Virus record (IMG/VR): IMGVR_UViG_3300030444_000128
DNA from: a virus
Taxonomy: Duplodnaviria > Heunggongvirae > Uroviricota > Caudoviricetes
Length of the DNA stretch: 19,646 nucleotides
Direction: 5' to 3' (one strand)
Shown piece after piece: positions 19,221 through 19,646 of the stretch. Both the position numbers and the translations under genes were made by a program. Position 1 is the first letter of the stretch. Each line of letters begins with the position of its first letter. The notes below the pieces were generated by a model. The model saw only the letters and a list, made by a program, of their open reading frames with translations. It ran no database searches and was not told where the DNA came from.

Positions 19221-19339
19221 AATTATGCCTCACTGTATTGACAACACAGAGCCTGAAGCTCTGACCTACTGTTTCACCCATGATCCATGCTGGGGTAATC
19301 TAACAACATTGCGCTGTGTGTAAGATGAGCAATGCATAG

Positions 19340-19646
19340 GGAAGGTGCGAATAAGTTCCTGATATGAGATCATCATATTCATCCGGAGCGCATCCCAGAG
19401 GGACATCATGAGCCATCAACTCACCTTCGCCGATAGTGAATTCAGCACTAAGCGCCGTCAGACCCGAAAAGAGATTTTCCTCTCCCGCATGGAGCAGATT
19501 CTGCCATGGCAGAATATGACCGCTGTCATCGAGCCGTTTTATCCCAAGGCGGGCAATGGCCGACGGCCCTATCCGCTGGAAACCATGCTACGCATTCACT
19601 GCATGCAGCATTGGTACAACCTGAGCGATGGCGCGATGGAAGATGC
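19340..19646 (+). mobile_element. IS5 left end (partial; continues beyond window end)
   Basis: GGAAGGTGCGAATAAG terminal inverted repeat at 19340-19355, followed by the known IS5 leader and transposase start. Recognised from memory. Confidence 0.9.
19408..19646 (+). CDS. insH: IS5 transposase, N-terminal part (partial)
   Basis: [79 protein letters not shown], which I recognise as the IS5 transposase N-terminus. Runs off the window end. Confidence 0.9.

What the first reader, a model, noticed from the sequence alone, without database searches (positions are those of the whole stretch)
19221..19646. IS5 inserted about 120 bp upstream of coi, in the c1/coi regulatory region
The IS5 terminal repeat starts at 19340, and its transposase reads away from coi. 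In P1 the region upstream of coi carries the immC promoters/operators and the imcB/imcA genes. An IS5 here may truncate those elements or change coi/c1 expression (IS5 is known to alter expression of adjacent genes), which could affect the stability of lysogeny.
Basis: partly seen in the sequence, partly recalled or inferred. Interest (0 to 1): 0.45.

Follow-up and report, generated by a model that had tools for sequence, protein, structure and literature searches.

The report
Common IS5-family insertion splitting P1 imcA
A jumping gene of the IS5 family sits inside the small imcA reading frame of a P1-like phage-plasmid, cutting the anti-repressor gene coi off from its only documented promoter, but the same insertion is already annotated in phage RCS47 and is shared by roughly one in eight P1-like plasmids, so it is an ordinary inherited lineage marker.

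Summary
An IS5-family left end starts at 19340, 119 bp upstream of the coi start codon, and its transposase reads away from coi. More precisely it is ISKpn26-like: 98% identical to ISKpn26 copies and 87% to canonical IS5.

Alignment with P1 places the insertion after codon 26 of imcA. c1, Pc1, Oc1a/b, coi, Oc1c and imcB are kept. The coi promoter P1coi (P99d), its operator Oc1d, Oc1e, P4cre and lox are moved to the far side of the IS, outside the window.

The event is not private:
- The same junction is annotated in phage RCS47 as "imcA, part 2".
- It occurs in 78 PLSDB plasmids, against 564 with the uninterrupted site.
- It occurs in 66 of 5,426 complete E. coli genomes and in 7 IMG/VR or metagenome contigs.
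- Relatives show a 1196-bp IS with an ATAG target duplication, or an IS–dmsABCD–IS unit at the same site.

My inference is a polar loss of C1-regulated coi expression with c1 maintenance intact, which would bias toward lysogeny rather than destabilise it. This is untested.

The documented IS5 activation mechanisms act through the IS 3' end, so they have the wrong orientation to affect coi. Separately, pacB in this window carries a 505-bp frameshifting deletion. Low interest; already known.

The parts
18049..18900 (-). c1, the primary repressor of lytic functions (283 aa, intact)
   Evidence: ORF. Colinear with P1 c1.100 (P1 93231-94082) and with RCS47 c1.
18968..18997 (-). Pc1 (former P99a), the promoter of c1. 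The -10 TATAAT is at 18968-18973 and the -35 TCTATT is at 18992-18997.
   Evidence: Positions transferred from the P1 annotation using window = P1 coordinate - 75182. Both hexamers are identical to P1.
18984..19011 (-). Bivalent C1 operator Oc1ab (former Op99a/b), retained
   Evidence: P1 annotation. Oc1a was found by pattern search at 18995-19011. There is one substitution relative to P1, at 18986.
19011..19220 (-). coi, the C1 inactivator (69 aa, intact; 2 substitutions relative to P1 Coi)
   Evidence: Annotated as coi in RCS47 and P1.
19167..19183 (-). C1 operator Oc1c (former Op99c) inside coi, retained
   Evidence: P1 annotation. The sequence is invariant in the window/P1/RCS47 alignment.
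19186..19281 (-). imcB (31 aa), intact and identical to P1 ImcB
   Evidence: Annotated in P1 and RCS47.
19300..19339 (-). 3' remnant of imcA: codons 26-37 plus the stop. The first 26 codons lie beyond the IS, outside the window.
   Evidence: Alignment to P1. Translation and reconstruction of an intact 37-aa imcA by removing the IS from L004. RCS47 annotates this piece as 'ImcA, part 2', a pseudogene.
19336..19339 (.). ATAG target site, the left copy of the 4-bp target duplication seen in relatives
   Evidence: In L004, L005, L013 and L016 the IS is flanked by ATAG on both sides. The right copy is outside this window.
19340..19646 (+). Left 307 bp of an ISKpn26-like IS5-family element: IRL at 19340-19355 and transposase codons 1-79 from 19408. 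The last 66 bp (19581-19635) carry six canonical-IS5 bases.
   Evidence: Full-length copies at the same junction in relatives are 1196 bp.

Best explanation
What is shown. An ISKpn26-like IS5-family element is inserted at an ATAG site after codon 26 of imcA, in the immC region of a P1-like phage-plasmid, with its left end facing coi. On the window side it leaves c1 with its own promoter Pc1 and operators Oc1a/b, coi with Oc1c, and imcB. It places at least 1.2 kb of IS between coi and P1coi (P99d)/Oc1d. The allele was inherited: it is the same insertion annotated in RCS47, and it is carried by about 11-16% of P1-like plasmids. In some relatives it forms one arm of an IS-dmsABCD-IS unit.

What is inferred. 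P1coi is the only documented promoter for coi, and the second promoter for c1. The insertion should therefore be polar on C1-regulated imcB-coi-c1 transcription. Coi would be lowered while Pc1-driven c1 maintenance stays intact. That shifts the C1:Coi balance toward repression, so toward lysogeny and the plasmid state. It should not block lytic growth, because coi is dispensable for plaque formation.
For: Anatomy:
- Identity with P1 breaks exactly at 19339/19340, inside imcA.
- The P1 annotation puts P1coi at 94634-94663 and Oc1d at 94641-94657, upstream of imcA, and describes Oc1d as controlling 'c1, coi, and imcBA'.
- In IS-bearing relatives Oc1d and Oc1e sit intact 124 and 207 bp beyond the IS right end.
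- Removing the IS and one ATAG copy from L004 restores a 37-aa imcA.

Inheritance:
- The same junction is in RCS47 and phi456.
- PLSDB holds 78 records with the left junction, 114 with the right junction and 564 with the empty site.
- The junction is in 66 of 5,426 complete E. coli genomes and 7 IMG/VR or metagenome contigs.
- Orientation is the same throughout, and the target ATAG matches only 3 of 4 positions of the IS5 target pattern (YTAR, from general knowledge; PMC2753651 reports CTAA). That is easier to explain by one event than by a hotspot.

Function:
[quoted passage not shown] 3A legend).
- Knock-down of coi or imcB does not impair P1vir plaque formation (PMC10695390).
- The minus strand of the IS, which a P1coi transcript would have to cross, contains terminator-like hairpins at L004 5538-5525, 5432-5417 and 5329-5314.
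- No consensus-grade outward promoter is found at the IS left end.
Against: - No expression data exist for this allele, so the polar effect is inferred.
- The strict promoter scan also misses the documented P1 promoters, so its negative result is weak.
- A weak extended -10 candidate lies in native P1 sequence between the IS and coi: CTTACA, 16 bp, TGtTAGATT, at 19324-19297. It could sustain some coi transcription.
- Read-through across the IS from P1coi, or from antisense starts inside the IS, is not excluded.
- The far side of the IS is not in the window, so for this particular replicon P1coi may be 1.2 kb away, about 8 kb away (the dms unit), or absent.
- The allele's spread shows only that it is tolerated.
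Confidence: 0.6

Rival explanations
1. Neutral passenger. The IS hitch-hikes in a successful P1-like lineage and has no meaningful effect on the switch. Either coi is still transcribed, from a cryptic promoter in 19221-19339 or by read-through across the IS, or Coi matters little in a lineage that also carries an icd-ant antirepressor module next to c1.
For: - coi, imcB and all retained operators are intact in every IS-bearing locus examined.
- There is a weak extended -10 candidate at 19324-19297.
- coi is non-essential in P1vir.
- A KilAC/ORF6N Ant gene at 16898-18016, with a C1-operator-like site at 16344-16360, lies beside c1.
- Empty-site plasmids with the same immC haplotype are much more common: 564 against 78-114.
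Against: The only documented coi promoter is displaced. The IS minus strand carries terminator-like hairpins. The candidate promoter is only a consensus match at 8 of 12 positions.
Confidence: 0.27
2. Activating insertion. The IS raises or deregulates coi (or c1) expression and so destabilises lysogeny.
For: IS5 can activate neighbouring operons (PMC2753651, PMC11894529). phi456, which has this junction, is reported to show high spontaneous induction (PMC10967188).
Against: - Both documented IS5 mechanisms act through the 3' end. The 177-bp IB region must be proximal to the promoter, and the fusion promoter transcribes in the ins5A direction. Here the 5' end faces coi and ins5A points away.
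- Any such effect would fall on the P4cre/cra/cre side instead.
- The deposited phi456 genome lacks lpa, pacA and pacB, so its phenotype is not clean evidence.
- Constitutive Coi would be expected to prevent stable plasmid carriage, yet the allele is carried stably in many complete plasmids.
Confidence: 0.08
3. Artefact. The junction, or the IS end, is a chimeric contig end produced when a short-read assembly ran into a repeat.
For: The window is bounded by IS fragments at both ends: IS1 at 1-144 and the IS5-family element at 19340-19646. The last 66 bp carry six canonical-IS5 bases that no other copy at this junction has.
Against: The junction itself is reproduced exactly in dozens of complete, closed plasmids and phage genomes. 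IS copies 99.7% identical to the window's 307 bp exist in closed E. coli chromosomes. At most the last ~66 bp are in doubt.
Confidence: 0.05

Closest known systems
Escherichia phage RCS47 (FO818745 / NC_042128), imcA interrupted by an IS5-family element
   Same: Identical junction, orientation and flanking sequence (100% coverage, 98.8% identity over 18900-19646). The GenBank record annotates 'ImcA, part 2' as a pseudogene next to 'transposase InsH, IS5D'.
   Different: In RCS47 the IS itself carries an IS1 insertion (1973 bp between the IS ends). It is followed by dmsA rather than by the 5' part of imcA. The far side in this window is unknown. The window's IS tail has six IS5-type bases.
P1-like plasmids with a simple imcA::ISKpn26 insertion (e.g. 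pE2 NZ_CP086663, pLR-62-2_1 NZ_AP027577, NZ_CP099352)
   Same: Same left junction. The IS is 1196 bp with an ATAG target duplication, followed by the 5' part of imcA, P1coi/Oc1d, Oc1e, cra and cre.
   Different: These are complete replicons. The window stops 307 bp into the IS, so the simple-insertion state cannot be confirmed for it.
Reference P1 immC region (NC_005856, 94150-94800)
   Same: Colinear and 93% identical from c1 through imcA codon 27, with the same promoters and operators on the c1-coi side.
   Different: P1 has an uninterrupted imcA, with P1coi/Oc1d 39-68 bp upstream of the imcA start. P1's own IS5 is in mod (mod749::IS5), and P1 lacks the icd-ant module between pacB and c1.
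IS5-mediated activation of glpFK and fucAO in E. coli
   Same: An IS5-family element inserted upstream of a regulated operon.
   Different: Those effects need the 3' end proximal to the target promoter (PMC2753651) or transcription in the transposase direction (PMC11894529). Here the 5' end is proximal to coi and the transposase is divergent, so neither mechanism applies to coi.

Membership tests
IS5-family insertion sequence (IS5 group, ISKpn26-like) | IS5-type 16-bp terminal inverted repeat GGAAGGTGCGAATAAG at the element end | tested here: met
   Exact match at 19340-19355. The inverse copy, CTTATTCGCACCTTCC, closes the element 1196 bp away in L004, L005 and L013.
IS5-family insertion sequence (IS5 group, ISKpn26-like) | DDE transposase of the IS5 family (DUF772 + DDE_Tnp_1; NCBIfam NF033581) | tested here: inconclusive
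   Only 79 codons lie in the window. DUF772 scores 32.2 bits (cut-off 23.1). NF033581 scores 63.7 bits, below its 140-bit whole-protein cut-off because the ORF is truncated. The full-length copy at the same junction in L004 scores 366.8 bits and has DDE_Tnp_1.
IS5-family insertion sequence (IS5 group, ISKpn26-like) | 4-bp target-site duplication at a YTAR-like site | not testable with these tools
   The right end is outside the window. Relatives with the same left junction show an ATAG duplication, a 3-of-4 match to YTAR.
IS5-family insertion sequence (IS5 group, ISKpn26-like) | Sequence identity to the named isoform (ISKpn26 versus canonical IS5) | tested here: met
   97.7-98.0% to copies annotated ISKpn26 and 87.3% to IS5 of phage 434B over 307 bp. 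The last 66 bp are IS5-like at six diagnostic sites.
P1-type immC region (c1-coi-imcB-imcA with C1 operators) | Colinear c1, coi and imcB homologues | tested here: met
   c1 283 aa. coi 69 aa, with 67 of 69 residues identical to P1. imcB is identical.
P1-type immC region (c1-coi-imcB-imcA with C1 operators) | Pc1 with Oc1a/b, and Oc1c within coi | tested here: met
   Hexamers and operators are conserved at the positions transferred from P1.
P1-type immC region (c1-coi-imcB-imcA with C1 operators) | Intact imcA, with P1coi/Oc1d directly upstream driving imcA-imcB-coi-c1 | tested here: not met
   Identity with P1 ends at 19339, after imcA codon 26. IS sequence follows.

The most novel reading that the evidence does not exclude
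The imcA::ISKpn26 allele could be a selected 'taming' mutation rather than a passenger. By uncoupling coi from P1coi it would lock P1-like phage-plasmids toward the plasmid state. That could explain its presence in about 11-16% of P1-like plasmids. It could also explain why several carriers have decayed packaging genes: the window (pacB deletion), pE2 (pacB fragment only) and the phi456 record (no lpa, pacA or pacB). The IS would additionally serve as a docking site for cargo such as the dmsABCD unit.
Probability: 0.12. Interest if true: 0.5.

Novelty: already known. Interest (0 to 1): 0.15.

Why it matters
P1-like phage-plasmids spread resistance genes, and whether a given element behaves as a phage or only as a plasmid depends on the C1/Coi/Lxc switch. 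A common allele that separates coi from its promoter could be a simple genomic marker for elements biased toward plasmid carriage. That would be of modest practical use if confirmed. The insertion itself is already annotated and widespread, its effect is unmeasured, and in this window the pacB deletion matters more for phage function.

Tried and rejected
- An exact-match scan of GTDB representative genomes for the 26-nt junction found nothing, so the source genome was not identified.
- No complete E. coli genome or PLSDB plasmid matches the window's junction region at 100%. The best is 98.9-99.1%, and the difference is the IS5-type tail.
- The built-in strict sigma-70 scan found no promoters in 18850-19646 or across the full IS in L004. 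It also fails to report the documented Pc1 and P1coi, so I treated it as uninformative. A looser scan returned only weak candidates.
- Lobocka et al. 2004 (PMC523184) and Billard-Pomares et al. 2014 (PMC4249366) are not held. What I know of them beyond GenBank annotation and other papers' citations is from memory and is not used as evidence.
- I first meant to use phi456, which has the same junction and reportedly forms plaques (PMC10967188), as proof that the allele is compatible with lytic growth. I downgraded it after tblastn found no lpa, pacA or pacB in the deposited genome.
- The hybrid ORF at 19300-19419, which fuses IS-derived codons in frame to the imcA C-terminus, was considered and dismissed as a chance antisense ORF. 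It has a TTG start and no support.
- An association between the IS allele and loss of packaging genes could not be tested. The search tools list at most 60 records, so they do not allow a per-record cross-tabulation.

Full report
**1. The observation**

The end of the window reads c1 (18049-18900, minus strand, 283 aa), then coi (19011-19220, minus strand, 69 aa). From 19340 the sequence is GGAAGGTGCGAATAAG..., the IS5-type terminal inverted repeat. An ORF starts at 19408 on the plus strand. Its 79 visible codons hit Pfam DUF772 above the cut-off and match NCBIfam IS5-family model NF033581.

There are 119 bp between the coi ATG and the IS, and the transposase diverges from coi.

The element is ISKpn26-like rather than canonical IS5. 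Over the 307 bp present it is 97.7-98.0% identical to copies annotated ISKpn26 and 87.3% identical to IS5 of phage 434B.

**2. What the IS interrupts**

The window aligns without gaps to P1 (NC_005856) from c1 up to 19339, with window coordinate = P1 coordinate - 75182. The alignment stops exactly at 19340.

The P1 record annotates, in order:
- Pc1 (P99a) at 94150-94179, and Oc1ab at 94166-94193
- coi at 94193-94402, with Oc1c at 94349-94365
- imcB at 94368-94463
- imcA at 94482-94595
- P1coi (P99d) at 94634-94663, with Oc1d at 94641-94657, described as controlling 'expression of c1, coi, and imcBA'
- Oc1e, P4cre, and then lox at 94784

Transferred to the window:
- Pc1, Oc1ab, coi, Oc1c and imcB are all present and essentially identical to P1.
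- imcA is cut after codon 26. Only 19300-19339 remain.
- P1coi/Oc1d, Oc1e, P4cre and lox all fall beyond the IS, outside the window.

Deleting the IS and one ATAG copy from a relative (L004) restores a 37-aa imcA.

**3. The insertion is shared, not private**

| Collection | Result |
|---|---|
| Phage records | Same junction in RCS47 and phi456 |
| PLSDB, 747-bp query | 83 records cover at least 80% |
| PLSDB, 240-bp left-junction query | 78 records |
| PLSDB, right junction (IS end, ATAG, imcA 5' part) | 114 records |
| PLSDB, reconstructed empty site | 564 of 702 matching records |
| Complete E. coli genomes | 66 of 5,426 have the left junction |
| IMG/VR and metagenome contigs | 7 contigs |

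RCS47's GenBank record already annotates 'immunity C function protein ImcA, part 2' as a pseudogene beside 'transposase InsH, IS5D'.

Where the whole element is available (L004, L005, L013, L016) it is 1196-1198 bp long. It is flanked by an ATAG duplication and followed by the 5' part of imcA, Oc1d, Oc1e, cra and cre.

In CP099133 and RCS47 the same site holds two directly repeated IS copies that bracket a dmsABCD cluster. ATAG lies at the outer ends and TTAG at the inner junction.

The orientation is constant, and ATAG is only a 3-of-4 match to the usual IS5 target pattern. I read this as one ancestral event that spread by descent and recombination. I could not formally test that.

**4. Likely consequence**

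[quoted passage not shown] With the IS in place, a P1coi transcript would have to cross at least 1.2 kb of IS antisense to the transposase. That strand contains terminator-like hairpins.

I found no consensus-grade outward promoter at the IS left end. There is only a weak extended -10 candidate, in native P1 sequence at 19324-19297. The scans are too crude to exclude promoter activity.

c1 keeps Pc1 and Oc1a/b. The inferred effect is therefore reduced, C1-uncoupled Coi with repressor maintenance intact, which would bias toward lysogeny. Lytic growth need not be blocked, because knock-down of coi or imcB leaves P1vir plating unaffected (PMC10695390).

This mechanism is an inference. No expression data exist for the allele.

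**5. Why the 'IS5 activates neighbours' idea fits poorly**

- In glpFK the activating element is a 177-bp region at the IS5 3' end 'proximal to the downstream promoter' (PMC2753651).
- In fucAO activation comes from a fusion promoter that transcribes in the ins5A direction, through the IS and out of its 3' end (PMC11894529).
- Here the 5' end faces coi and ins5A points away.
- If these mechanisms operate in the simple-insertion plasmids, they would act on the P4cre/cra/cre side, not on coi.

**6. Context that changes the weight of the finding**

- *Likely a contig bounded by repeats.* The window has an IS1 end at 1-144 and the IS5-family end at 19340-19646. It looks like a short-read contig, so what lies beyond the IS in this replicon is unknown.
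- *Mosaic IS tail.* The last 66 bp carry six canonical-IS5 bases that no other copy at this junction has. Near-identical mosaic copies do exist in closed E. coli chromosomes.
- *pacB is broken.* It has a 505-bp internal deletion relative to its closest relative, which frameshifts PacB after 136 residues. The deletion is absent from the best PLSDB matches. pacB is essential in P1, so this element is probably packaging-defective whatever the IS does.
- *phi456 is weak evidence.* The deposited genome shares the junction and is reported to form plaques, but it contains no lpa, pacA or pacB. I do not rely on it.

**7. Literature and verdict**

Searches of the held library found no paper that discusses this insertion's effect on coi.

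The structural interpretation is supported. The functional suggestion is plausible, but its likely direction is opposite to 'destabilising lysogeny', and it remains untested.

The insertion is an already annotated, common allele of P1-like phage-plasmids. Interest is low.

Noticed in passing
window 15361-16340 (deletion junction at 15768/15769): pacB carries a 505-bp internal deletion relative to NZ_CP099352 (L006 21642-22146). It frameshifts PacB, leaving a 139-aa ORF at 15361-15780, and the C-terminal part continues in another frame to 16340. The top PLSDB hits all have the undeleted gene. pacB is essential in P1, so the element is probably packaging-defective unless this is an assembly error.
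   Followed up: partly
window 1-144: The first 144 bases are an IS1 end. They match L006 34443-34586, which lies at an annotated IS1 family transposase. With the IS5-family end at 19340-19646, the window is bounded by IS fragments on both sides, as a short-read contig would be.
   Followed up: partly
window 19581-19635: Six diagnostic positions in the last 66 bp of the IS carry canonical-IS5 bases instead of ISKpn26 bases. All 12 other copies at this junction that I examined have the ISKpn26 bases. IS copies 99.7% identical to the window's 307 bp exist in a few closed E. coli chromosomes. This is either a real IS5/ISKpn26 mosaic (gene conversion) or contig-end contamination from another copy.
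   Followed up: partly
window 16344-18016: An icd-like ORF and a 372-aa Ant antirepressor (ORF6N + KilAC domains, 16898-18016) lie between pacB and c1. They are preceded by a C1-operator-like site, TTTGCTCTAATAAATTG, at 16344-16360. Reference P1 has pacB directly next to c1, while RCS47 and many P1-like plasmids share this module. It may make Coi partly redundant.
   Followed up: no
L007 (CP099133.1 13500-25500) and L001 (RCS47): At the same ATAG site in imcA, two directly repeated ISKpn26-like copies bracket a dmsABC-dmsD-4Fe4S cluster of about 6 kb. In RCS47 the first IS copy is itself split by an IS1. A solo IS could derive from this unit by recombination between the two copies, or the unit could have been built on the solo IS.
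   Followed up: partly
L009-L011 (phage phi456, OR339795.1): The deposited phi456 genome has no lpa, pacA or pacB (tblastn found no hits). An IS1 sits between pdcB and a truncated ant. The IS5-family transposase is annotated as 'putative baseplate hub protein' in two pieces. This is hard to reconcile with the published plaque formation.
   Followed up: partly
window 5494-11508: A type I restriction-modification system is present: hsdR 5494-8610, hsdS 8732-9949 and hsdM 9946-11508, all on the minus strand. It lies upstream of phd-doc, as in many P7/SJ46-like plasmids. The hsdS region is the least conserved part relative to the closest relative, with an alignment gap at 8871-9895.
   Followed up: no
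window 19300-19419 (minus strand): The insertion creates an ORF with a TTG start (39 aa; 103 aa in L004) that runs from inside the IS, out through the left inverted repeat, in frame into the last 12 imcA codons and the imcA stop. It is probably a chance antisense ORF.
   Followed up: no
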